A stretch of DNA of 64,000 bases from a virus. Positions 8,578 through 61,206 of this stretch are shown piece by piece. The notes beneath the pieces are model-generated. The model made no database searches, was not told the origin of the DNA, and saw only the letters and a program-made list of their open reading frames with translations. A program made the translations under genes and the position numbers. The stretch's first letter is position 1. The number at the start of each line of letters is the position of its first letter. The stretch is from positions 32,001 to 96,000 of IMG/VR virus record IMGVR_UViG_3300045974_000760; one strand, given 5' to 3'.

Positions 8578-8974
8578 AGACACACTTCAGACCGTTCTCG
8601 GGCTTCTGAAGCAACAGGCAGCGCGCATCGATGAGATTGGCACTGCGTTCAATCAGAACGCCGGCGCCTACTACGAGGGGTACCAGATGACGGAGATGTG
8701 GTCCGTCATCCAACGGCGCGTGCTCAGCGACATGTTGCGCGGCGAGGTCTACACCGTCGAGGTCGAGTACGCGCTGCCCCTGCGTCCGACAGACCTGCTG
8801 GACCAAGCGATGCACCCGTGTGTTGACTGGCAGAAGTACAAGGAGGACTACATCGCGATGATTGGGCTCATCGCAGCGCTCGATAACCTCAAGCACGTCT
8901 TCTACGGCTCGCAGGTGAAGTTGGCCACCGAAGCCGATTTGCGTGTGATTGAGTTCGGCGGGGATGTACCCTTA
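8507..8974 (+). CDS. hypothetical protein (ends at TTA)
   Basis: GGAG RBS; in-frame TTA 8972-8974 with an ATG 3 nt later. Confidence 0.6.
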
Positions 8975-18825: not shown

Positions 18826-20286
18826 TTGTCCGTCTACATCGAAATCACCACGCAGTCGTTGAATCTGCAGACGAACCTTCAAGGGCAAGGTGGCGGCAGC
18901 TCACGTGCAGGCCGGGCGTCTGCACGAAGGCCGCTGCGCGGGACCGAAATCAAGGAGAACACGTACGGGGTGATGAAGGCGGTACTGCCCGACGGCACCC
19001 CCATCCCGCTCATCTCCTCGAACAACGCTGAGGGCAAGGTCAAGGGCTGGACGAACTTCATGCTCCAGAGCGTGCAGGAGTCCCGCGTTGAAAAGCAGCA
19101 GATGATCGAGACGTTCGGGGACACGTACGTCTGGTTCTTCGGTGAGAGCCCGCGTTTTCTCGATGTGCAAGCCATCGTCCTCAACTCGAACGACTTCAAC
19201 TGGGAGGCCGAGTTCTGGGCGAACTACGAGCGGTACTTCCGAGGCACCAAGTTGACTGAGCTCGGGGCGCGTCTGTACCTCTGCTACGACGACACCATCG
19301 TCGAGGGCTACATGATGAACGCGCAGGCACAGAAGACCGCGCAGCAGCCCCTCGAGGTCCCCATTGCGTTTCGACTGTTCGTGACGGGCAGCACCAACGT
19401 CTCCAACGTCGGTAGCGGCGCCTTCCCCATCCGCGCAAGCGTGCAGGGCCTCTGGCCCATGGAGAAGCTACGTAAGCCCCTCAGCCCCGACGACATCAAG
19501 AAGCTCGTCAAGCTCAACGGCAGCCACATCCCCTCCGATGTCGACATCGGCGACTTCGTCAACAACGCCGAGGCACTCGTCGACCGCCCTCTGCGCAGCA
19601 ACATCGAAGACAATGCCGACGAGTGGACTGACCCAGATCCCTCTCCCTTCATCGAGAAGAGCGACTTCCAGGACGACATCGATGACCTCCTCGTCGCGCT
19701 CAACAAGGGTATGCAAGATCTAGGTGCCCTCACCAGCCAGCTGCAGAGCTTGATGGACCCGCAGAGCGCCTACGGCAGTGTCTTCAACAAGTCCCCGCTC
19801 AACACGCTGCCCTCGCTCTCCCCCAAGGAGCAGTGGAACAAGCTCAAGAAGACGTACAGCGACGCCAAGAACACCACGGAGAAGATCTCCAAGACCGGCA
19901 GCAAGGTCGTCAACGCCGTCACGCACAGCGGGCAGGAGTGGCACGACTTCTGGAACGACCCCGATGCCTACGTCGCTGACAAGGTGAAGAAGTCGGGCCT
20001 CTACGACAAGGTCGTCAAGGAGGCGAAGAAGCAAGCCGAGAACGTCTGGGAAGGCAAGCCCATGACCCTCAACTCCACCGTAGGCAGCCCCCCACGTACT
20101 GGACCCCCAGCCTCTCTCGCCCCTTATGGCATTGGCTCCCCAGGTACTACCGGTGGTGTCGCGAACAACAACTCCACCGGCGGCTACTCCTACGGGTACA
20201 GCTACTCGGGCGGTACTGGCTCAGGTGACTCACCTTCCTACTCGAAGTCCATCTTCTGGTCATCGACTGGTGCTAAGGCACCATTA
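18826..20286 (+). CDS. tail/baseplate-associated protein (ends TTA-TGA)
   Basis: beta-rich FMLQSVQESRVEKQQMIETFG...FFGESPR domain; last codons are CCA TTA TGA. Confidence 0.6.
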
Positions 20287-25417: not shown

Positions 25418-26081
25418 GACCTTCTTCGATTGCCTGCGCAAGCTCGCTGCCGCTACCGTCCCCACGGCAGCTGAAGCGCGTGATGCATTGAAGCGCATCA
25501 ACGACCTCGAGGCGACCAAGCCCACTGCAGAGCAGATGCTGCGGTACGGCACGCTGGGCGGTGCTAGCGGCCTCGGTATCGGCGCTGTCACCGATATGAT
25601 GCGCGGCAAGATTCCCTACAAGCCCACCGACGCAGCAGGTGGCCTCCTCAAGGGGCGCGCCGCACTCGTGCACGTGGGCCGCAACGTGGCAGCTGACTTT
25701 GCCAAGGGCGCGCTCGGTGGCGGTGCGGTTCCTCTTCTTCGTCACCACGTGGACCGTGATGTCGAGATGCAGCGCCTCCGTGCCTACGTCGAGTCCCGCC
25801 CCAAGAAGGCGGTTGTCGCGCCCCCGCCTGAAGCACCTCCTCCACCCGTTCCTCAGATGCAACCCAACCTGATGGGCGGGTTGTCAACGGGAGCAGAGGC
25901 TTCTCCATCTCTCGGCGGGATGAAGGTGGCCGGTGTCCCTCTCACACCCGCTGGCCGACTTGCTCACTCATCCCGTATGGGCAAGACGCCGAGCTCTACG
26001 AACTCGGGACCCTCCATCGCAGACCAGGTCAAACCCATCGGGTTTGGGCGACCACTTCCGGGCGCAACAAAAGGTACCTGA
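25410..26081 (+). CDS. putative virion-internal protein
   Basis: FFDCLRKLA and MKVA motifs; glycine-zipper-like segments. Confidence 0.6.
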   Translation: MAETFFDCLRKLAAATVPTAAEARDALKRINDLEATKPTAEQMLRYGTLGGASGLGIGAVTDMMRGKIPYKPTDAAGGLLKGRAALVHVGRNVAADFAKGALGGGAVPLLRHHVDRDVEMQRLRAYVESRPKKAVVAPPPEAPPPPVPQMQPNLMGGLSTGAEASPSLGGMKVAGVPLTPAGRLAHSSRMGKTPSSTNSGPSIADQVKPIGFGRPLPGATKGT

Positions 26082-27133: not shown

Positions 27134-27955
27134 ATGACGAAGGAGGAGCTGAAGTTTGGAGCTCCGCCAGCCAAAGCCGGGGCTCAATCCCCGGCTTTGA
27201 CGTATATGGCGGACAAGGCCTCACGCGCTAGCCCGAGCGCACGTACCGAACGTGAGCTGCAGATGTGGCACACGTGGAATGACAGCGGGCGAAAGCCCGA
27301 ACACCTCGAGCCCCTGCTCAAAGCCTACGAGCCCATCTTCTCTCAGAAGGTGCGGCAGTGGTCGGCTGGTGCAGCGGGCGTGAATCCCATGTTCATGCGC
27401 GCGCAGGTCGAGAAGCACTTCATCGACGCCGTGGGGAAGTTCGACCCCAGCCGTGGCTATGCGCTTGCGACTCACGTCGACAAGCCGATGAACAAGGCAC
27501 AGAGGGCGCGCAACACGGTGCAAAACGCGGCCTACGTCTCCGAGGAGACAGCCCGCACTATCGCGCCCATCCAGAACGCCACCGCCGAGCTGCACGCAGA
27601 GCTCGGCCGAATGCCTACCCCGCAAGAGATTGCTACCAGGTCGGGGCTTGGTCTTCGCGTCATCAAGCGACATCAGCTCGAGATTCGCAAAGACGTCGCT
27701 GCCTCGGCGTACGAGAACGACCCCACCGAGAACCCGATGAATCGGGCTCACGATATCGCTCCCCTACTTCGGGAGCAGTTCCAGCAGCCCGGCTTCCAGC
27801 CTCACGTACTACACGTGTTTGACCACACGTTCGGGCTGAATGGAGCTCCGACAGACCTGAGCGGCGGGCAGCTCGCCAAGAAGCTCGGCGTCTCACCCTC
27901 GGCCATCTCTCAAGCGAAGAGCCTCATTCTCGCTGAGACAAAGAAGTACCTGTTA
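27134..27955 (+). CDS. RNA polymerase sigma factor, group-3-like (FliA/SigB/WhiG type), ends at TTA
   Basis: Region 2 AVGKFDPSRGYALATHV, region 3 LGRMPTPQEIA, region 4 LSGGQLAKKLGVSPSAISQ...KKYL followed by TTA. Confidence 0.8.
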
Positions 27956-28033
27956 TACCCACCCGCAGTACATCGAGGCCCGTCACTCATAGCGAGAGGC
28001 GGGCCTCTCTCATTTCCAAAGGCACAACAAGAC

Positions 28034-33552: not shown

Positions 33553-33914
33553 AGGTCGTGCATATCGCGCCGGAGAAGCACCGTGACCTAGCATTTGGCG
33601 TGGTCGCGCACGCACTGTCATTCATCGTACCCCTCAACATCCGCGTCATCATCTTCGAGCTCGCTTCGGTGAGCTTGAAGGCGGAGGGCGCATCGGATGC
33701 TGAGGTGCAGCGTCTTGGCGAGGAGCTCGCGGACTTCCTCCTTCCTGAACGCGAGGATGGCAAGTACGAAGCCATCAAGGACAACCCGAGGGTTGCCCCG
33801 CTGCTGGCACAGCTACTCGAAGAGCGGTTCCCTGGTTTTCTCCCAACCCCGAAGGCAAGGAGCAAGAAGCGTGAGCCCAAACCCAAACTCAAGTCACCAA
33901 CCAAGGGTAGATTA
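33549..33914 (+). CDS. hypothetical protein (ends at TTA TTA)
   Basis: Tandem in-frame TTA 33912-33917 after a Lys-rich tail. Confidence 0.55.
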
Positions 33915-33936
33915 TTACCCAAACGTCAGGCACGTT

Positions 33937-40712: not shown

Positions 40713-41026
40713 AGCCCCTCTCCCGCAAAGAGAGGGAAGTACTGAAGGTGGCCAGGGCACTCCATCTGCGACTGGGTGCCCCGCCCACTTTCAGCCAGCT
40801 GCGGACTGAGCTAGGCAAGGACGGGACGAACCACGTCTACGCGAGGGTCTACAGCATACGGGGCAAGGGCCACGAAATCCCCGTACTACCGCCCTTCGCT
40901 CTGTCACAAGACACCAGGCTACGTGAGTGCAGGGCGCTTGTGCGGCAATGGCGGGAGGACCCAACCATCGAGCCTGTGGATGTGCTCACGCTGATTGCCG
41001 AGCTACTCGAGCCGGGGAAGCAATGA
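40694..41026 (+). CDS. LexA-N-like winged-HTH protein
   Basis: LSRKEREVL...GAPPTFSQL...LG. Confidence 0.6.
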   Translation: MDTKDLKPLSRKEREVLKVARALHLRLGAPPTFSQLRTELGKDGTNHVYARVYSIRGKGHEIPVLPPFALSQDTRLRECRALVRQWREDPTIEPVDVLTLIAELLEPGKQ

Positions 41027-41193
41027 ACGGGGGCCCGCAAGTCATTGCCGTACTGCGACGGGCCAACACAATCTGCCTTGCCAAGCGCGCACAACGTGTC
41101 TTGGCGAGGCAGGTAGCACCTGCGCTATTCGCTATCCTCCTCATCGCAGCTGGTGCAAGGAACAAGGAAGATGAAGCCCAGCTCCCTGTTTTA
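41023..41193 (+). CDS. small protein (ends at TTA)
   Basis: ATGA coupling; in-frame TTA 41191-41193, just inside the next gene. Confidence 0.5.
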
Positions 41194-46951: not shown

Positions 46952-47746
46952 ATGATTGTTACCGTCACACGCAAGCAGCTGGTTGATGTCGAGGCATGCG
47001 AAGCCTCGATGGACTTCTTCGACAGCATTGCGTTTACGTCAGGTCGGGGCCCCGACTTCAACTACGTCATCGTCGACACGCGCGACACATTGCTCATGGT
47101 GTGGTTCTACTCCTACTACCACGAGTGGGCTCAGTTCGCGGTTCGGCATGGGCTACTGCCCTACTTCGGCCTACGCAATCAGGTCGTGACCAAGCTCGAG
47201 ACTCAGTACCTGCGTGCAGAGCGAGCGGTAATCAGCGAGTCAGTCCTTGTGGACTGGAACGTTATTGACACCAACTTTGAGGGCGCGATGTTCGATCGCG
47301 TCGACATCAAAGACAGTGAGCTGAGCGGGATGCACATGCCAGGCATGGATATCCGCTTCTCGAACCTACGCCGTGTGATGTGGGGCTACGTGAACTTGTC
47401 CGACGGGTGCGTGTACCAATCCAACTTCTACAAAGTGAACATGCATCACGCGCGGTTTAGCGACACCCTCTTCTGGGGGTGCAGGTTCGACAATGTCGAC
47501 TTGTCGAGCGCGCATGGAGGCAAGGTCCGCTTCCGCAACTGCGCGTTCAAAGATACGAAGCTCGCCAACATCGACCTGCGCACGGCAACGTTCGAGGAAT
47601 GTGTCTTCTACGGGGAGGAGATGGACCTCTCCCTCACCATGGTCAATCCCGCCACCTTCCCGTATGTCAAAGGCTGGACGGTCAGCCCCGAGGGAGTGAT
47701 GCTGCGGGAGCCTGCACCACCTCCCGGTACAACTGCCGATGTCTGA
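46952..47746 (+). CDS. pentapeptide repeat protein
   Basis: TNFEG/AMFDR/CRFDN/VDLSS/ATFEE repeats. Confidence 0.85.
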   Translation: MIVTVTRKQLVDVEACEASMDFFDSIAFTSGRGPDFNYVIVDTRDTLLMVWFYSYYHEWAQFAVRHGLLPYFGLRNQVVTKLETQYLRAERAVISESVLVDWNVIDTNFEGAMFDRVDIKDSELSGMHMPGMDIRFSNLRRVMWGYVNLSDGCVYQSNFYKVNMHHARFSDTLFWGCRFDNVDLSSAHGGKVRFRNCAFKDTKLANIDLRTATFEECVFYGEEMDLSLTMVNPATFPYVKGWTVSPEGVMLREPAPPPGTTADV

Positions 47747-48170
47747 TAACTACGTGAGCATGTGGGGCACGCTCAACTGGCGTACCCCCTTCAGCAACCC
47801 CAAGGTGCATGTCGTAGTAGACGTGGACCCCGAGCTCGCTGCATACGCGCGCACGTTCATCCCACCGTCAGAGCGTATCAACGTCCCTCGCTACCCCGCC
47901 CACATCACGGCAATGCGCGGGGAGGGGACACACAAGCACCACAGACGGTTGCTCGAGAAGGTACGGGGCATGGTCATCCCATTCGAGTGCGGGAAGATGT
48001 CGGAGCTCAGGCACGACAACGTGTACTGGTGGCTGCCCGTCTACTCGCCCGCGCTTCTGATGTTGCGCAAGCTGCTCGACTTGCCCGAATACACCGAGCT
48101 CACGAAACCACCTGATGGTGCGGAGATGTTTCACATCACCGTCGGCAACACGAAAGGTTGGGCACCATGA
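47739..48170 (+). CDS. 2H phosphoesterase-like protein
   Basis: Two H-I-T motifs (PAHITAM, FHITVG) about 78 aa apart. Confidence 0.7.
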   Translation: MSDNYVSMWGTLNWRTPFSNPKVHVVVDVDPELAAYARTFIPPSERINVPRYPAHITAMRGEGTHKHHRRLLEKVRGMVIPFECGKMSELRHDNVYWWLPVYSPALLMLRKLLDLPEYTELTKPPDGAEMFHITVGNTKGWAP

Positions 48171-48949
48171 CGCACACCATCACTCTCACCACTACCGAGC
48201 TGCGGGATGCACGTGCTTGTCCCGCCGGTCTTCGCGCATTCCAAAAGCTCATCGGCAAGGGTAAGCGCTCCATCTCTTTCAATCCCGCTGACCCGCTCAT
48301 CGCCCTCTGGTCGCGCTGCGTCTATGGCCAGTACGTTCACTGGCTCGAGCGCGATAAGCACATGCCGCCTCTAGCCCTCCGCAGTACCCTCATCCAGAAC
48401 GCGGAGCTCCGCGACCTCACCGCGGTCGGCAGCCAATGGTCGCTCGTCAACATTCGTAAATCCAACATCTTCCACGCCACCTTCAACGCGGCGCTCTTCG
48501 ACACCTCCTCCATCAGTCACTCAGACCTATTTGGGTCGCGCTTCAACAACGCGACTTTTCTGAGCTGCAATCTCTTCAATCTGACGCTCACTCAAACGTA
48601 CTTTGGGCACACGCGCTTCAGCCAATGCAGCTTCAGCGATTTGTCGACCAGGCTCGCCTCCTTTCACGGCGCGGTCTTCACAGATTGCACCTTCACAGAT
48701 TGCGACCTCAGTGATGGCAACTTCAAGTACGCCATCTTTCGCGGCTGTCGCTTCGATCGGTGCAAGTTCTCAGGTGCGCATCTAGGCAAAGCCATCCTCT
48801 CCGATGGCTTCTACTCCAACACAGATCTGGGTGGGGCACTCCGCTTCAAAGAAGACCCTCCCCTCCCCGGGTACCGCACCAAGAAGTACAAGCCCGTCCC
48901 GGATTACGTTGTGCTGGAGTCGAGGTACAAGAAGCCGACGAGGGAGTGA
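48167..48949 (+). CDS. pentapeptide repeat protein
   Basis: ATFNA/SDLFG/AVFTD/CDLSD repeats; N-terminal L..ARAC..G shared with 46952. Confidence 0.85.
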   Translation: MTHTITLTTTELRDARACPAGLRAFQKLIGKGKRSISFNPADPLIALWSRCVYGQYVHWLERDKHMPPLALRSTLIQNAELRDLTAVGSQWSLVNIRKSNIFHATFNAALFDTSSISHSDLFGSRFNNATFLSCNLFNLTLTQTYFGHTRFSQCSFSDLSTRLASFHGAVFTDCTFTDCDLSDGNFKYAIFRGCRFDRCKFSGAHLGKAILSDGFYSNTDLGGALRFKEDPPLPGYRTKKYKPVPDYVVLESRYKKPTRE

Positions 48950-50111: not shown

Positions 50112-50866
50112 TTGGACCTGGAACATACGCGGTGATTCGAACCATCGGTGCGGGTGTACACGTGGGCGAGATTGTGGATTGGGACGTCAGCAACTCCACC
50201 GTCGTGTACCTGAAGAACTGCCGGCGCGTACACAAGTGGAGCAGCGCCGCTTCCCCGCACATCCACACGCTCAACGAAATGGCAGTGCGCGGGTTGAACA
50301 AGAGCGACAGCCGGGTGACTGCCCCCATCCCGAACTACACCCTTCTGACCGCAACTCAAATCCTGCCGATGTCCAACCTGGCCATCAGCTCGTTCGAGGA
50401 GGTGGGCTGGGAAGGGGACATGTACAAGCTGCCCTTCGAGGCTCAACCCAAGGCCCCGCCCGAGGGCATAGTCGCCCATGAAGGTGTCACCTGCCTCATA
50501 CGCACCTACGGTGCGGGCGTCTCCCTCGGTGAGGTGGATGCCTGGGACCCCCGCTACCCTGGCGTTGTGCACCTCCGCAACGCACGGCAGGTGTGGCAGT
50601 GGGACAACGCCGTGGCCGGGCCTGATGGACAGGTGTACGTCATCCACAGCATCTCTGAGGCAGCTGCTGTGGGCCCAGGCACAAGCGGCCGGGTCAGCGA
50701 GTACGTCGAGGAGGAGACGATAACGTCAGCCCTCGAAATCATCCCCATCTCTGCCTACGCGCTGCAGCAGTACGCCGCGCAAGGCTGGGAAGCCCCCTAC
50801 AACGGTCGCCTTCCAGTGGGCGAAGAGCCGCCACAGAGGCTACATGCTGACGATGAGTACGCTTAG
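50108..50866 (+). CDS. tandem DUF6948-like domain protein
   Basis: Two copies of IRT.GAGV..GE.....V.L.N.R.V..W......E.A..G.......I.P.S..A.......GWE. Confidence 0.7.
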   Translation: MIGPGTYAVIRTIGAGVHVGEIVDWDVSNSTVVYLKNCRRVHKWSSAASPHIHTLNEMAVRGLNKSDSRVTAPIPNYTLLTATQILPMSNLAISSFEEVGWEGDMYKLPFEAQPKAPPEGIVAHEGVTCLIRTYGAGVSLGEVDAWDPRYPGVVHLRNARQVWQWDNAVAGPDGQVYVIHSISEAAAVGPGTSGRVSEYVEEETITSALEIIPISAYALQQYAAQGWEAPYNGRLPVGEEPPQRLHADDEYA

Positions 50867-51128
50867 CCACATCAGGTTGATGCTGTTCGGTCCGTACGAC
50901 ACTACGTTCAGCCCGCACCTTCCCTGTGAGATTCGGGGATGTGCGGGCAGTCGTTGTGAGCTCATGTCCGAAGACATGTTCTACGGTGACGGTGAGGACA
51001 TACACTTCGGCACGCGCAGCTACGACAACGAGCTCGAAGCGCCGGAGTACATACCCGACGGGCCCATTGGCTCCTTCGAGATGGCAGGGCCTCGCGCAAG
51101 GCGCGCGGTCTTGGGCGTCTATGCGTTA
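50853..51128 (+). CDS. array peptide 1 (ends at TTA)
   Basis: TTA 51126-51128 overlaps the next gene's start (ATG 51121). Confidence 0.55.
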
Positions 51129-51294
51129 CATCTGGCTCATACTCGGGCCCGGGCCCCGGCACGAGCTCCACACCGAAGAGACGCGCTTCTGCTTCGATGA
51201 CTGGAAGGCCGACGCAGAAGAGTACCCAGAACCTCCCTGTAGTGAAACGAAGGCCAGCGGCTGCCTGGCAGTGGAGTATCGAGAATGGAGGTGA
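51121..51294 (+). CDS. array peptide 2
   Basis: MRYIWL...DAEEY...VEYREWR. Confidence 0.55.
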   Translation: MRYIWLILGPGPRHELHTEETRFCFDDWKADAEEYPEPPCSETKASGCLAVEYREWR

Positions 51295-51298
51295 GCAG

Positions 51299-51508
51299 AT
51301 GATGACCTGGCTACGGTTGTTTCGAATGACACCGATGACGGAGAACTGCAGGTACAAGTCCGGCGTTGGTGCGCACCAGCGTCAGCACATGCCGTGGGAG
51401 GCGCAGATGTGGCCCGGTCTTGCGGACGGGGGCAGCATCTTCGAGAGCAGGGGCGAGGGCATACATCCGATGGCTGACTCTCGCGGTCTATTCACGGCTC
51501 CAGAATGA
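51299..51508 (+). CDS. array peptide 3
   Basis: GGAGG RBS. Confidence 0.6.
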   Translation: MMTWLRLFRMTPMTENCRYKSGVGAHQRQHMPWEAQMWPGLADGGSIFESRGEGIHPMADSRGLFTAPE

Positions 51509-51705
51509 TGCAGATCTTGAAATGGCACTACTACATAGTCGGTGAACCTGGGGACTCGATCGCGGGGCAAGGTGACTATCGTTTCGCAGCGGGGATTGCA
51601 ACACCTGCTGCGCCGCGTTTTTCCGACGAGTACGACGAGCACCACGGGGGTGGAACAAATGAGCTGTGGAGGAGGCCAGAACGTGATGACACTACAACGG
51701 ATTGA
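51505..51705 (+). CDS. array peptide 4
   Basis: ATGA coupling. Confidence 0.55.
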   Translation: MMQILKWHYYIVGEPGDSIAGQGDYRFAAGIATPAAPRFSDEYDEHHGGGTNELWRRPERDDTTTD

Positions 51706-51892
51706 TTTCACCGTCGGCATGCACTTCGTACATGCCGGGCGGGACGAGCTCGGCATCTACGGCAATGGCCAGTACATGCACTACCCGTACGCCGTAGATG
51801 CCGTCAGCATCGGTGATGGTTGGTGCGGTACGGACGAAGTAGTTTGCCACGGCGAAGGCGCCTCCTACAGGAATATTGCGCATGATACCTAG
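51686..51892 (+). CDS. array peptide 5
   Basis: GGAGG RBS; YGNG and GDG motifs. Confidence 0.6.
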   Translation: MTLQRIDFTVGMHFVHAGRDELGIYGNGQYMHYPYAVDAVSIGDGWCGTDEVVCHGEGASYRNIAHDT

Positions 51893-52085
51893 CAATGCCC
51901 TGCTCATCGTGCGGTCCCGCTACACACTGTTTGCTGAGCCGTGCCCTGGCCTAATGGCCTCCGACGCGGCCTGGTGCGCCTCACTGACCAACACACAGGA
52001 CGCACGACGTACCTGGCATTGTTACCTCATTCGATACCGAGAGTGCATCGGTGAAGCGGAAGGATGGGAAGATGATTGCGGTTAG
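51882..52085 (+). CDS. array peptide 6
   Basis: AGGA RBS. Confidence 0.55.
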   Translation: MIPSNALLIVRSRYTLFAEPCPGLMASDAAWCASLTNTQDARRTWHCYLIRYRECIGEAEGWEDDCG

Positions 52086-52281
52086 AATGTCCCACTACGC
52101 GTACTGGGGTACTTCCAGTCAACCGTATCGACACTACGCTGAGTCGCAATGTGAGTACCTTTGCGAGCGTCCGTGGAAAGGTGACGCGGAGGAGTACGTG
52201 TACGATGAAGAGGAAGCGCTGAGCGGTTGTCTGTACGAGGAGTACACGTACAGCCACCGCTCGGCAGAAGGGCGGTGTTTA
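52072..52281 (+). CDS. array peptide 7 (ends at TTA)
   Basis: Paralog of peptide 9; TTA 52279-52281 gives a near-identical length (69 vs 70 aa). Confidence 0.65.
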
Positions 52282-52282
52282 C

Positions 52283-52468
52283 GTGTGGCTACGAGCTCTG
52301 CCCTTCGTGCCCTACATGCACTTCTACGAGTACACGCCCATTGCCTCCCACGAATACAACCTCGTAACGGAGTGGAACGTGTTGCTCGTAGAAGAGCTCG
52401 ATACAACGAACCCAACATACCGAGGTTACTGCGCGGACGAGATACTAGACACACACAGGGGCATCTAA
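52283..52468 (+). CDS. array peptide 8
   Basis: GTG 1 nt after TTA; TAATG coupling to the next gene. Confidence 0.55.
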   Translation: MWLRALPFVPYMHFYEYTPIASHEYNLVTEWNVLLVEELDTTNPTYRGYCADEILDTHRGI

Positions 52469-52680
52469 TGATTGTGCTTCGAATGTCTCACTACACGTAC
52501 GAAGGCACGCACGCGCAGGATGAATGTGCGGACTGGTATAGCGAGGCGTATCCGCCACATTACCTCTGGGCGGTAGATGCGGAGGAGTATGCCTACGTGG
52601 CCCCCCTCCCTGGTGAGCCAGGAGGCGGTGTGCTCGACCACGAGTACACCTACAGTAGTCGCGAGATTGAGAATCGATGA
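52468..52680 (+). CDS. array peptide 9
   Basis: MIVLRMSHYTY...DAEEYAY...EYTYS. Confidence 0.65.
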   Translation: MIVLRMSHYTYEGTHAQDECADWYSEAYPPHYLWAVDAEEYAYVAPLPGEPGGGVLDHEYTYSSREIENR

Positions 52681-52883
52681 ACAACAACGCCTATCTCGTG
52701 TGGGTACAACAGCAGCGGTGCGTCTTGTTCAGTACGCAGAGCCCGCTCGCTGACACGTACAGCCTGTGGCGCGATGATGATGCCCGTGCCTGTCTGCAGG
52801 CCCGTATCTCGCGGGATTACGAGGATTACACCAATCCTCAGCTCGTACTGAACGACTACAGCGCGGGTGTACGAAAAGAGTAA
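52677..52883 (+). CDS. array peptide 10
   Basis: ATGA coupling. Confidence 0.55.
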   Translation: MNNNAYLVWVQQQRCVLFSTQSPLADTYSLWRDDDARACLQARISRDYEDYTNPQLVLNDYSAGVRKE

Positions 52884-52934
52884 ATCGGGGATAAGAAGTA
52901 CGCAGGCGGTTACTACACACAGGAGGAAGAACAG

Positions 52935-53348
52935 ATGGCTGATGCATCAACGGGGAAGTTTGAAGTGGGCGCGCTGAGCGCGTCGTACCGGCAAGAGGGT
53001 TCACTCACCTACGTCACGCTGCACCGCGCGGGCAACTCTAGTATCGGCCCCGCTGTCTTGGGGGCTACCGCAGAAGACCTGGCAAAAGTAGTCGCAGAGC
53101 TCGTTGATCGAGGGCTCGTGCAGCTGCCCGTAATGCCGACACAGAAGCGTGAGGCGCTCAAGAAGAAGATCGCCGAGCTGGGCATAGATGCGACCGTGAG
53201 CGACCCGGCTGATTACAAGGCACACGATTGGTGCACCGCTGAGGTGCTGGCGGTCGTAGTGGTTGCCTCCCTCACACTCGACCAGATGCGGCTACTGCTA
53301 GTCACGTGTAGAGAGACATTCAAGGATAACGAGGTAGTTATCCGATGA
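52935..53348 (+). CDS. hypothetical protein, paralog family A
   Basis: AGGAGG RBS; promoter motif at 52891; LAKVVAELVDRGLVQLP. Confidence 0.7.
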   Translation: MADASTGKFEVGALSASYRQEGSLTYVTLHRAGNSSIGPAVLGATAEDLAKVVAELVDRGLVQLPVMPTQKREALKKKIAELGIDATVSDPADYKAHDWCTAEVLAVVVVASLTLDQMRLLLVTCRETFKDNEVVIR

Positions 53349-53527
53349 GCGTCATCGTCATCATCGACCTCGAGGGTGATGAGGCGGCGAAGCTGTTGAA
53401 GTCCGCCATCATCATGCGGGACGCTGACCTCAAGCGCATCAAGCGCCTGGTGAAGAAGCTCGGCTTCCTCGATGAGTTCAAGAAGCTGGGTATTGACGTC
53501 TACCCAATCAAGGCAAAGAAGACATGA
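53345..53527 (+). CDS. small hypothetical protein
   Basis: Coupled ORF. Confidence 0.6.
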   Translation: MSVIVIIDLEGDEAAKLLKSAIIMRDADLKRIKRLVKKLGFLDEFKKLGIDVYPIKAKKT

Positions 53528-57904: not shown

Positions 57905-58257
57905 TTACACCCGAGGAGCTGATGAGCGTCATCGTGCGGTTGTTCGGTGCGGCTGCCGTGATGCTCCTCCTGGTGGCATCTGCGGGCCTGCTACGCATCT
58001 GCTCCCTCCAGGAGAAGCTCAAGATGGTCGGGGAGAAGGAGCGGAGGGTGACGGCGGCCGAGCACACCTCTCTCGATTGGTCCCGTCGCATGGGCCTCGG
58101 TATGCCCGTAGGCCAGCAATGCAGCGTCGTGGATGACGCAGGGCGGGTCTTCTGTACCCTCGCCCATCGAACCCCCGACACGTCTCTCGCAACGACGTAT
58201 CTCTGGTGCACCGCTGAAAGGTGCACCACAACAGACACAATGCCTGTACCGGAGTTA
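57901..58257 (+). CDS. membrane-anchored Cys protein (ends at TTA)
   Basis: TM helix, several Cys; TTA 58255-58257 with an ATG 4 nt later. Confidence 0.6.
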
Positions 58258-59565: not shown

Positions 59566-59965
59566 GCAAGACTGGGCAGACATCCAGCAGTGGAGCGGTG
59601 AGTCGCCGGATATGGCAGATGCCGTGGCCATGGCCGTAGCAAACACCGTCAAGCCGCGGGTGAAGCGCCCGAAGTACCTCGGTGAACTCATGAAGAAGGG
59701 CGGGCTCGATATCGACGCCATCATCAATAGCCGGGTCGGTGACTACTACTCCCTGGACAAGCCCCGTGACCCAGGCTTCGCCAACTACCTCAAGGACACG
59801 TACAGGTGGAGTAAACACGAAGCTCGCCGCCAATGGCGCGCCCTACTCGATCGCGATATCGACCCCGCGGTAATACTCAACACAAGGAGGGCAACGTGGC
59901 GAAAGATGACGCAGAACAAGCAAACGAAGGTCGCGACCTCGGAGCAGAACCTAGTAGAACCGTTA
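59558..59965 (+). CDS. LG.L..LDID-motif protein (TTA 59963; next standard stop 60001)
   Basis: YLGELMKKGGLDIDAIINSR. Confidence 0.6.
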
Positions 59966-61027: not shown

Positions 61028-61113
61028 GCCTCGTGTAGCTCAGTTGGTAGAGCGCGGGATGACATCCGAAAGGGGTCTGCCCGAGGTCGATGGTTCAAGC
61101 CCATCCACAGGCA
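61028..61113 (+). ncRNA. tRNA-like RNA lacking an anticodon loop
   Basis: Canonical D arm (TAGCTCAGTTGGTAGAGC) and T arm; anticodon arm replaced by an extended stem capped by GAAA. Confidence 0.65.
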
Positions 61114-61206
61114 CACGGGCTGAATAAGCTCGGGCGCAAGCCCCTCTACTCTTGGTGACACAAGAGATAGACTGAGTTCCGGCTCAGAGGTAAACCGGAG
61201 AAGTAC

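What the first reader, a model, noticed from the sequence alone, without database searches (positions are those of the whole stretch)
52072..52680. Internal control for TTA=stop: duplicated peptides end at TTA and TGA
52072 (MIAVRMSHYAY...DAEEYVY...EYTYSHRSAEGRC-TTA) and 52468 (MIVLRMSHYTY...DAEEYAY...EYTYSSREIENR-TGA) are clear paralogs at DNA and protein level. The TTA in copy 1 falls within about one codon of the TGA in copy 2. A coupled gene (52283-52468) fills the space between them in another frame.
Basis: seen in the sequence. Interest (0 to 1): 0.7.

Follow-up and report, generated by a model that had tools for sequence, protein, structure and literature searches.

The report
Phage peptide gene ending at TTA
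In this uncultured pond phage, one of three duplicated small-peptide genes has the leucine codon TTA where its relatives have a normal stop codon, which fits a genome-wide pattern in which TTA marks gene ends, a code change reported so far only for mitochondria and plastids.

Summary
Copy 1 (A1, 52072-52278, then TTA at 52279-52281) and copy 2 (A2, 52468-52680) are true paralogs (E 1e-10). There is a third paralog at 51121-51294 and two outside homologs, P0002 and P0005. All four other members stop right after a conserved Arg. A1 has TGT (Cys) at that position and TTA as the next codon.

- The read-through frame over 52282-52467 scores like an off-frame, and the +1 frame (gene B1, 52283-52468) scores as coding.
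- No 202-aa product exists among 1.8 billion representative proteins.

Genome-wide, TTA is never internal to genes (about 113 expected). Twelve of 13 in-frame TTAs sit where coding ends, the same rate as TAA/TAG/TGA (P = 4e-6 against sense codons). At three other genes the standard stop of related phages aligns exactly with this phage's TTA.

Caveats:
- Relatives in the same terminase clade read TTA as a rare Leu.
- The host is unknown, and no release-factor or tRNA-Leu(UAA) gene lies on the 77%-complete contig.
- There is no protein-level evidence.

I conclude that translation of A1 most likely ends at TTA. Earlier notes of this scan describe the same TTA behaviour on this genome and on at least 14 other phage genomes.

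The parts
52058..52064 (+). Shine-Dalgarno-like GGAAGGA, 7 nt before the A1 start codon
   Evidence: Read directly from the sequence.
52072..52278 (+). A1: 69-codon acidic, Tyr-rich peptide gene (copy 1). Its last codon is TGT, at the position where all relatives have a stop.
   Evidence: Paralog of A2. It is 61% identical to the outside homolog P0002. Alignment A2. Its frame scores best of the three.
52279..52281 (+). In-frame TTA, the proposed end of A1. It lies one codon after the family's stop position and 1 nt before the B1 start.
   Evidence: Coding potential switches frame here.
52283..52468 (+). B1: 61-codon gene in the +1 frame (GTG start; alternative starts at GTG 52307 and ATG 52316). 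Its TAA stop overlaps the A2 ATG.
   Evidence: Coding score +0.11/codon and GC3 0.71, against -0.65 and 0.35 for the read-through frame. A public gene call of 50 aa from ATG 52316 exists (P0006). No homologs were found.
52282..52467 (+). Read-through segment in the A1 frame. It would be an Arg-rich 62-codon linker, is not coding-like, and holds a second in-frame TTA at 52426.
52468..52680 (+). A2: 70-codon paralog (copy 2) that ends at TGA, overlapping the next gene's ATG (ATGA).
   Evidence: P0001.
52677..52883 (+). B2: 68-codon downstream gene coupled to A2. It is not a paralog of B1.
51121..51294 (+). A3: third paralog, 57 codons, ends Arg-TGA.
   Evidence: E 5e-7 to A1.
51126..51128 (+). 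In-frame TTA that ends the gene upstream of A3. It overlaps the A3 start as ATGCGTTA.
27953..27955 (+). Junction TTA between a sigma-like gene and a DUF932 gene, which table 11 joins into one 628-codon ORF.
   Evidence: None of 494 phage records has the fusion. The stop of relative G002 aligns exactly with this TTA.
8972..8974 (+). Junction TTA, 3 nt before the next gene's in-frame ATG.
   Evidence: The TGA of relative G001 aligns exactly with it.
41191..41193 (+). Junction TTA. The next gene's ATG, with an AAGGAAG ribosome-binding site, lies 20 nt upstream in the +1 frame.
58255..58257 (+). Junction TTA. GGAG precedes it and the next gene's ATG follows 4 nt later. The table-11 frame would run 214 codons further.
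59963..59965 (+). In-frame TTA at a gene end, with a standard stop 11 codons later. Uninformative on its own.
20284..20286 (+). TTA immediately before TGA (TTATGA), overlapping the next ATG.

Best explanation
A1, B1, A2 and B2 are four separate, translationally coupled small genes of an early-type phage operon. Translation of A1 ends at the TTA at 52279-52281 and yields a 69-residue peptide. Ribosomes then restart 1 nt later at the GTG of B1.

In this phage TTA is not used as leucine. It serves as a gene-ending codon at 13 or more junctions.

Shown:
- TTA is absent inside genes.
- TTA sits where coding potential ends and the next gene starts.
- TTA sits where the homologs of relatives have TGA or TAA.

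Inferred:
- Termination really happens at TTA.
- How it happens. I think the most likely route is a bacterial-type release factor with widened specificity, as in the RF2 Ser204 changes tied to UUA = stop in organelles (PMC12574857). That factor would be supplied by the unknown host or by the missing 23% of the phage genome.
- The second route is that UUA is unreadable because no working tRNA-Leu(UAA) exists. The ribosome would then stall after the finished protein and be released by rescue or by peptidyl-tRNA drop-off.

The function of the A-family peptides themselves is unknown. They are small, acidic and Tyr-rich, and the structure model is poor.
For: Locus:
- Four other family members stop right after the conserved Arg, while A1 has TGT then TTA.
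- The read-through frame is off-frame-like and the +1 frame is coding.
- No fused homolog exists.
- The spacing between genes is typical of coupling: TTA-C-GTG, TAATG and ATGA.

Genome:
- Seven in-frame TTAs were seen in trusted ORFs against 113 expected from positional base use, and all seven are at junctions. CTA (144), GTA (260) and ATA (69) are used.
- Twelve of 13 in-frame TTAs are followed by a loss of coding potential. The rate is 91% for TAA/TAG/TGA and 29% for 12 sense codons (Fisher P = 4e-6).
- A model with four stop codons gives more genes and a higher total score than table 11.

Comparative:
- The standard stops of relatives align exactly with the TTA at genome 15647 (4 relatives), 40972 (G001) and 59953 (G002).
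- They align within 1-3 codons at 25627 and 63237.
- DUF932 is never fused to a sigma factor in 494 phage records.

Sequence quality: an independent Logan assembly is identical over 50800-53400 at depth 13.

Precedent: UUA = stop through RF changes in organelles.
Against: - There are no protein or ribosome data.
- Phages of the same terminase clade read TTA as a rare sense codon. G002 has 9 internal TTAs, L065 has one inside its terminase and G001 has one inside an HNH gene. The trait would therefore be recent or host-specific.
- No release-factor domain and no tRNA-Leu(UAA) lie on the contig, and the host is unknown.
- At A1 the family stop position holds TGT, so a simple lost stop is possible.
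- One TTA (genome 31079) is followed by 25 codons that still score as coding.
- The A1 codon score is weak (-0.07/codon).
- The only read support probably comes from the sample that gave the contig.
Confidence: 0.68

Rival explanations
1. Standard code. A1 lost its stop through a TGA-to-TGT change, and TTA is read as Leu. The product is then a 202-aa A1-linker-A2 read-through protein, or A1 is a decaying copy. The neighbouring TTA is a coincidence.
For: TGT aligns with the stop of every other family member and differs from TGA by one base. Relatives of the terminase clade decode TTA as Leu. An open frame of 62 off-frame codons has roughly a 0.2 chance, given about 2.5% stops per off-frame codon (counts).
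Against: The linker frame looks non-coding and lies wholly over B1. No such product is known. A1 is the copy closest to the outside homolog (61% against 45% for A2) and keeps its start and ribosome-binding site. A TTA within one codon has a chance of about 0.5-0.8%. The same coincidence would be needed at 12 or more other junctions, three of them exactly at orthologous stops.
Confidence: 0.12
2. TTA is a hungry codon in a host whose only tRNA-Leu(UAA) is scarce or regulated, like bldA in Streptomyces. It acts as a conditional end. Products end at TTA while that tRNA is absent and are read through when it appears, so the junction TTAs sense the state of the host.
For: Streptomyces phages usually lack UUA altogether, and UUA just before a downstream start is known from the adpA leader ORF (PMC10732093). 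The phage carries tRNAs for other A-ending codons (ATA, GTA, CTA, ACA) but none for TTA. Many DUF932 hits are in actinophages, though this may be database bias.
Against: The host is unknown. A stalled ribosome with mRNA still downstream is a poor substrate for rescue, and tmRNA tagging would destroy the protein. The downstream genes lie in all three frames, so read-through would give mostly nonsense tails.
Confidence: 0.15
3. A programmed +1 frameshift at the TTA fuses A1 to B1 and gives a protein of about 131 aa.
For: B1 is in the +1 frame, that frame is open from about 52223, and TTA is a rare codon that could pause the ribosome.
Against: The P-site codon UGU cannot re-pair in the +1 frame (GUU). 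B1 has its own start and a purine-rich stretch 7 nt upstream. All other family members end at the Arg with no B1-like tail. At other TTA junctions the next gene lies in frame 0, +1 or +2.
Confidence: 0.03
4. Sequencing or assembly error: the true codon is TGA or TAA.
For: This is a single metagenome contig at modest depth of about 13.
Against: A second assembler (Logan) gives the same sequence with no differences over 2.6 kb. Errors would not fall only on stop codons while sparing more than 120 TGA stops.
Confidence: 0.02

Closest known systems
UUA = stop in organelles: Thraustochytrium/labyrinthulean mitochondria (NCBI table 23), peDinoflagellate plastids, and Marsupiomonadales and Pseudoscourfieldia mitochondria (PMC12574857)
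   Same: The Leu codon UUA is absent inside genes and sits where homologs have standard stops. No cognate tRNA gene lies on the genome. The translation system is of the bacterial type.
   Different: Here it is a tailed phage of an unknown bacterium, not an organelle. No altered RF2 or RF1 has been identified. UUG and UCA remain normal sense codons. Phages of the same clade still read TTA as Leu.
bldA/UUA limitation in Streptomyces and its phages, including the phiHau3 UUA bypassing proposal and the adpA leader ORF that ends near UUA (PMC10732093)
   Same: The phage genome is purged of TTA. The remaining TTAs sit at special positions just before a downstream start. Stalling at UUA with drop-off and Pth hydrolysis has been discussed as a release route.
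   Different: In that system UUA is still leucine and is used for regulation at one or two sites. Here 13 or more genes have no other stop codon nearby. An actinobacterial host is not shown.
Stop-codon-recoded phages (TAG or TGA read as an amino acid; crAss-like, Lak)
   Same: It is a phage-level departure from table 11 that makes standard gene callers produce wrong ORFs. The phage also carries a tRNA with a CUA anticodon.
   Different: The direction is the opposite: sense to stop, not stop to sense. TAG, TGA and TAA all still end genes here.

Membership tests
Sense-to-stop UUA code (table 23-like) | UUA absent from internal, conserved positions of genes | tested here: met
   No internal TTA against about 113 expected. 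All in-frame TTAs in coding context are at junctions, with one doubtful case at genome 31079.
Sense-to-stop UUA code (table 23-like) | UUA at positions where homologs carry standard stop codons | tested here: met
   The match is exact at genome 15647, 40972 and 59953, and within 1-3 codons at 25627 and 63237. At A1 the TTA is one codon after the family stop.
Sense-to-stop UUA code (table 23-like) | No tRNA able to read UUA | tested here: inconclusive
   None of the 8 tRNA genes on the contig reads UUA. The host tRNA set is unknown and the contig is 77% complete.
Sense-to-stop UUA code (table 23-like) | Release factor with an altered codon-recognition motif (RF2 Ser204, or the mtRF1a loop) | not testable with these tools
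   No RF-1 or PCRF domain lies on the contig. The host is not identified, because related contigs are binned into five unrelated MAG taxa.
Sense-to-stop UUA code (table 23-like) | Protein C-termini mapped to the codon before UUA | not testable with these tools
   No proteomic or ribosome-profiling data are available. No RNA run holds the stretch.
bldA-type UUA limitation (Streptomyces and actinophages) | Host with a single, regulated tRNA-Leu(UAA) | not testable with these tools
   The host is unknown.
bldA-type UUA limitation (Streptomyces and actinophages) | Phage coding sequences purged of TTA | tested here: met
Programmed +1 ribosomal frameshift | P-site codon that can re-pair in the +1 frame, and a fused product conserved in homologs | tested here: not met
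   UGU to GUU cannot re-pair. Homologs end at Arg-stop. The downstream frames differ between sites.
Ordinary table-11 gene (202-aa read-through ORF) | Coding-like composition along the ORF and full-length homologs | tested here: not met
   The linker scores -0.65/codon with GC3 0.35. No full-length homolog was found.

The most novel reading that the evidence does not exclude
UUA is a true fourth stop codon in this phage-host pair, recognised by a release factor of altered specificity. That would be the first sense-to-stop change of the genetic code outside organelles. The A1/A2 pair would then be a natural within-genome control in which TTA and TGA end paralogous peptides. Going by the unchecked notes of this scan, the same change may recur in many unrelated uncultured phages.
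Probability: 0.4. Interest if true: 0.9.

Novelty: new variant of a known kind. Interest (0 to 1): 0.74.

Why it matters
No sense-to-stop code change in bacteria or their viruses turned up in the three paper searches run here. If TTA ends translation here, three things follow. Table-11 gene calling fuses or drops genes in such phages; here A1 appears to have been left uncalled and a sigma factor is joined to DUF932. Code-inference tools that only assign amino acids will miss the change. A release factor or rescue route that reads UUA must also exist in a free-living host or in its phage. The A1-B1-A2 segment is a compact test construct of about 600 bp. One reading frame gives either a 69-aa or a 202-aa product, and a paralog ending in TGA sits beside it as a reference.

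Tried and rejected
The Logan contigs that encode P0002, P0005 and the 95%-identical terminase P0007 could not be fetched, so their stop codons and neighbours were not seen.
- The search for related loci with A1+A2, P0002, alignment A2, the sigma part and two neighbouring genes found no relative in viral or metagenome contigs.
- No A-family member was found in G001-G005 or by tblastn in 85 relative loci.
- B1 and A2 have no homologs other than themselves.
- Pfam and PHROGs gave nothing for the 209-aa ORF.
- The protein atlas gave no usable hit.
- The AlphaFold model of A1 is poor (pLDDT 51), so I ran no fold search.
- Rfam found nothing in 50500-53500.
- The promoter and terminator scan found nothing above chance.
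- blastn against phage records gave no match.
- No RNA holder was listed for the stretch.
- Host inference failed. Related terminase contigs are binned into Anaerolineales, Burkholderiales, Myxococcales, cyanobacterial and Planctomyces MAGs.
- I considered and dropped a frameshift into a stop. The +1 codon after TTA is TAG at only 4 sites.
- I considered and dropped SD-motif bias. It explains the enrichment of AGA and AGG near gene ends but not that of TTA.

Full report
**What the window is.** The window is bases 32001-96000 of a 143,216-bp single-contig IMG/VR virus record. The record is linear and about 77% complete. Its G+C is 61%. It carries eight tRNA genes and a GpA-type large terminase that contains an intein. 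It has no close cultured relative; terminase identity to any cultured phage is at most 27%. A Logan assembly of a 2025 pond-metagenome run reproduces 50800-53400 without a single difference at depth 13. That run is probably the source sample, so this rules out an assembler artefact but is not independent data.

**The observation.** The sequence is as described.
- A1 starts at ATG 52072 behind a GGAAGGA ribosome-binding site. It runs 69 codons to TGT (52276-52278) and is followed by TTA (52279-52281).
- One base later a GTG opens B1 (52283-52468) in the +1 frame.
- The TAA of B1 overlaps the ATG of A2 (52468-52680), and the TGA of A2 overlaps the ATG of B2 (52677-52883).
- Under table 11 the A1 frame has no stop before 52680, which gives a 202/209-aa ORF.

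A1 and A2 are paralogs with BLASTP E 1e-10 and 44% identity. Synonymous sites are saturated (pS 0.81) while pN is 0.38, and 15 of 32 conserved residues use different codons. The similarity is therefore kept by selection on the protein in this frame.

A third paralog lies at 51121-51294. A search over 1.84 billion representatives found one outside family: P0002 (66 aa, 61% identical to A1) and its cluster mate P0005.

In the five-way alignment, A2, A3, P0002 and P0005 all stop directly after a conserved Arg. A1 alone has a codon there (TGT), and TTA follows it. So TTA lies exactly one codon beyond the family's stop position.

- I trained a codon log-odds model on 87 ORFs of this genome. With it, the read-through frame over 52282-52467 scores -0.65 bits per codon with GC3 0.35. 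None of 759 true-frame windows of that length scores so low, and the value sits at the mean of off-frame windows.
- The +1 frame scores +0.11 with GC3 0.71. That lies inside the true-frame range and is reached by 0.07% of off-frame windows.
- No protein in the representative library spans A1 and A2. The exact 202- and 209-aa products are not on record, whereas 70-aa A2 and a 50-aa B1 call are.

Neither refutation criterion is met.

**Is TTA special genome-wide?** Yes.
- Positional base use predicts about 113 in-frame TTAs in 30,295 trusted codons. Seven are seen, all at gene junctions.
- Other A-ending codons are in normal use: CTA 144, GTA 260, ATA 69.
- I took every codon that lies in the locally best coding frame and asked whether that frame stays coding over the next 40 codons. 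It fails to do so after 12 of 13 TTAs. The figures are 80-94% for TAA, TAG and TGA and 20-38% for twelve ordinary sense codons (Fisher P = 4e-6).
- AGA and AGG are intermediate, as expected for pieces of Shine-Dalgarno motifs that lie in the ends of upstream genes.
- The thirteenth TTA (genome 121203) is followed by a GGAAGGGA site and an in-frame ATG of the next gene, so it too is a junction.
- With a relaxed filter, only the TTA at genome 31079 is followed by sequence that still scores as coding, for 25 codons. I could not resolve that case.

The next start lies close to each of these TTAs:
- It overlaps the TTA as TTATG at genome 96563 and at window 20284.
- It follows 1-4 nt later at genome 25627 and at window 52279, 8972 and 58255.
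- It overlaps as ATGCGTTA at window 51126.
- At window 27953 a hairpin followed by T-rich sequence and a ribosome-binding site come first.

A crude gene model that treats TTA as a stop finds 181 genes against 174 and has a higher total score.

**Comparative test.** The terminase has more than 1,400 relatives, and 80 loci were fetched from IMG/VR. I fetched two whole relatives, G001 and G002 (142 and 146 kb). I aligned the products of the TTA-ended genes to them.
- At genome 15647 four relatives end at TGA or TAA exactly where this phage has TTA (followed here by TAG).
- At 40972 (window 8972) the TGA of G001 aligns exactly with the TTA.
- At 59953 (window 27953, the sigma-like gene) the stop of G002 aligns exactly with the TTA.
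- At 25627 and 63237 the stops of relatives lie within 1-3 codons.
- DUF932 is a stand-alone gene in all 494 phage records that match it.

**What speaks against a settled code change.**
- The same relatives read TTA as leucine. G002 has nine internal TTAs, L065 has one inside its terminase, and G001 has one in a conserved HNH motif. In TTA-using relatives the codon behaves like any sense codon, with 20% downstream loss. The trait is thus specific to this phage or to unseen close kin, and it presumably follows its host.
- The contig has no RF-1 or PCRF domain and no tRNA-Leu(UAA).
- The host cannot be inferred.
- Nothing here shows the protein ends directly.

**Mechanism.**
- Termination at TTA is inferred, not shown.
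- The best precedent is organellar. UUA became a stop several times in systems that use bacterial-type factors, each time together with changes in the codon-reading part of RF2 or mtRF1a (PMC12574857). I rate this route as the most likely here.
- The alternative is an unreadable codon. Streptomyces phages usually lack UUA because the host's bldA tRNA is not functional in vegetative cells. UUA close to a downstream start, and release by drop-off plus peptidyl-tRNA hydrolase, have been discussed for that system (PMC10732093). Earlier notes report a Pth-like gene next to the CUA-anticodon tRNA of this phage. I confirmed only the tRNA.
- A +1 frameshift into B1 is unlikely. UGU cannot re-pair in the +1 frame, the homologs have no B-like tail, and other junctions continue in all three frames.

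**What the peptides do.** This is unknown. Three paralogs plus an outside ortholog share a W-x-x-DAEEY block and a G-x-L-x-x-EY block. They are acidic and rich in Tyr. They lie among small genes typical of early phage regions. The structure model is unreliable (pLDDT 51), and no family, atlas or Rfam match exists.

**Novelty.** Three paper searches turned up no sense-to-stop change in bacteria or phages. The notes of this scan, which are unchecked AI notes, describe the same TTA behaviour on this genome and on at least 14 other phage genomes. So this locus is not a first sighting within the scan. It is a compact and well-controlled example.

**Verdict.** The confidence that A1 ends at TTA is about 0.68.

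Noticed in passing
window 61029-61114 (+): An 86-nt tRNA-like gene with a long variable arm and a six-membered anticodon loop. ARAGORN calls it tRNA-?(Ser|Val). It cannot be assigned a codon.
   Followed up: partly
genome 109393-109464 (-), outside the window (L003:13393-13464): A tRNA with a CUA anticodon, a candidate amber suppressor, although TAG ends about 20-30 genes here. Earlier notes link it to a Pth-like gene.
   Followed up: no
L001:1211-4306 (genome 1211-4306, +): The large terminase is 1031 aa, against about 600 aa in most relatives. Long relatives carry intein and LAGLIDADG domains (PF14528, PF14890), so this copy probably holds an intein.
   Followed up: no
window 46952-47746 and 48158-48949 (+): Two neighbouring pentapeptide-repeat proteins.
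   Followed up: no
L002:11079 (genome 31079, +): An in-frame TTA followed by 25 codons that still score as coding before a TGA. It is the one possible exception to 'TTA only at gene ends'. No homolog was found to settle it.
   Followed up: partly
L037:13519 onward: This relative has few TTAs (0 seen, 12 expected). It lacks the conserved stop after ...YAAY and has an in-frame TTA five codons further on, so TTA ends may occur in other members of the clade.
   Followed up: no
window 27956-28020 (+): A G+C-rich hairpin followed by T-rich sequence lies right after the TTA of the sigma-like gene and before the DUF932 start. It looks like a terminator inside what table 11 reads as one ORF.
   Followed up: no
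window 33912-33917 (+): Two consecutive in-frame TTAs (TTATTA) at the end of a gene with a Lys/Pro-rich tail. Coding potential switches to the +1 frame here.
   Followed up: partly
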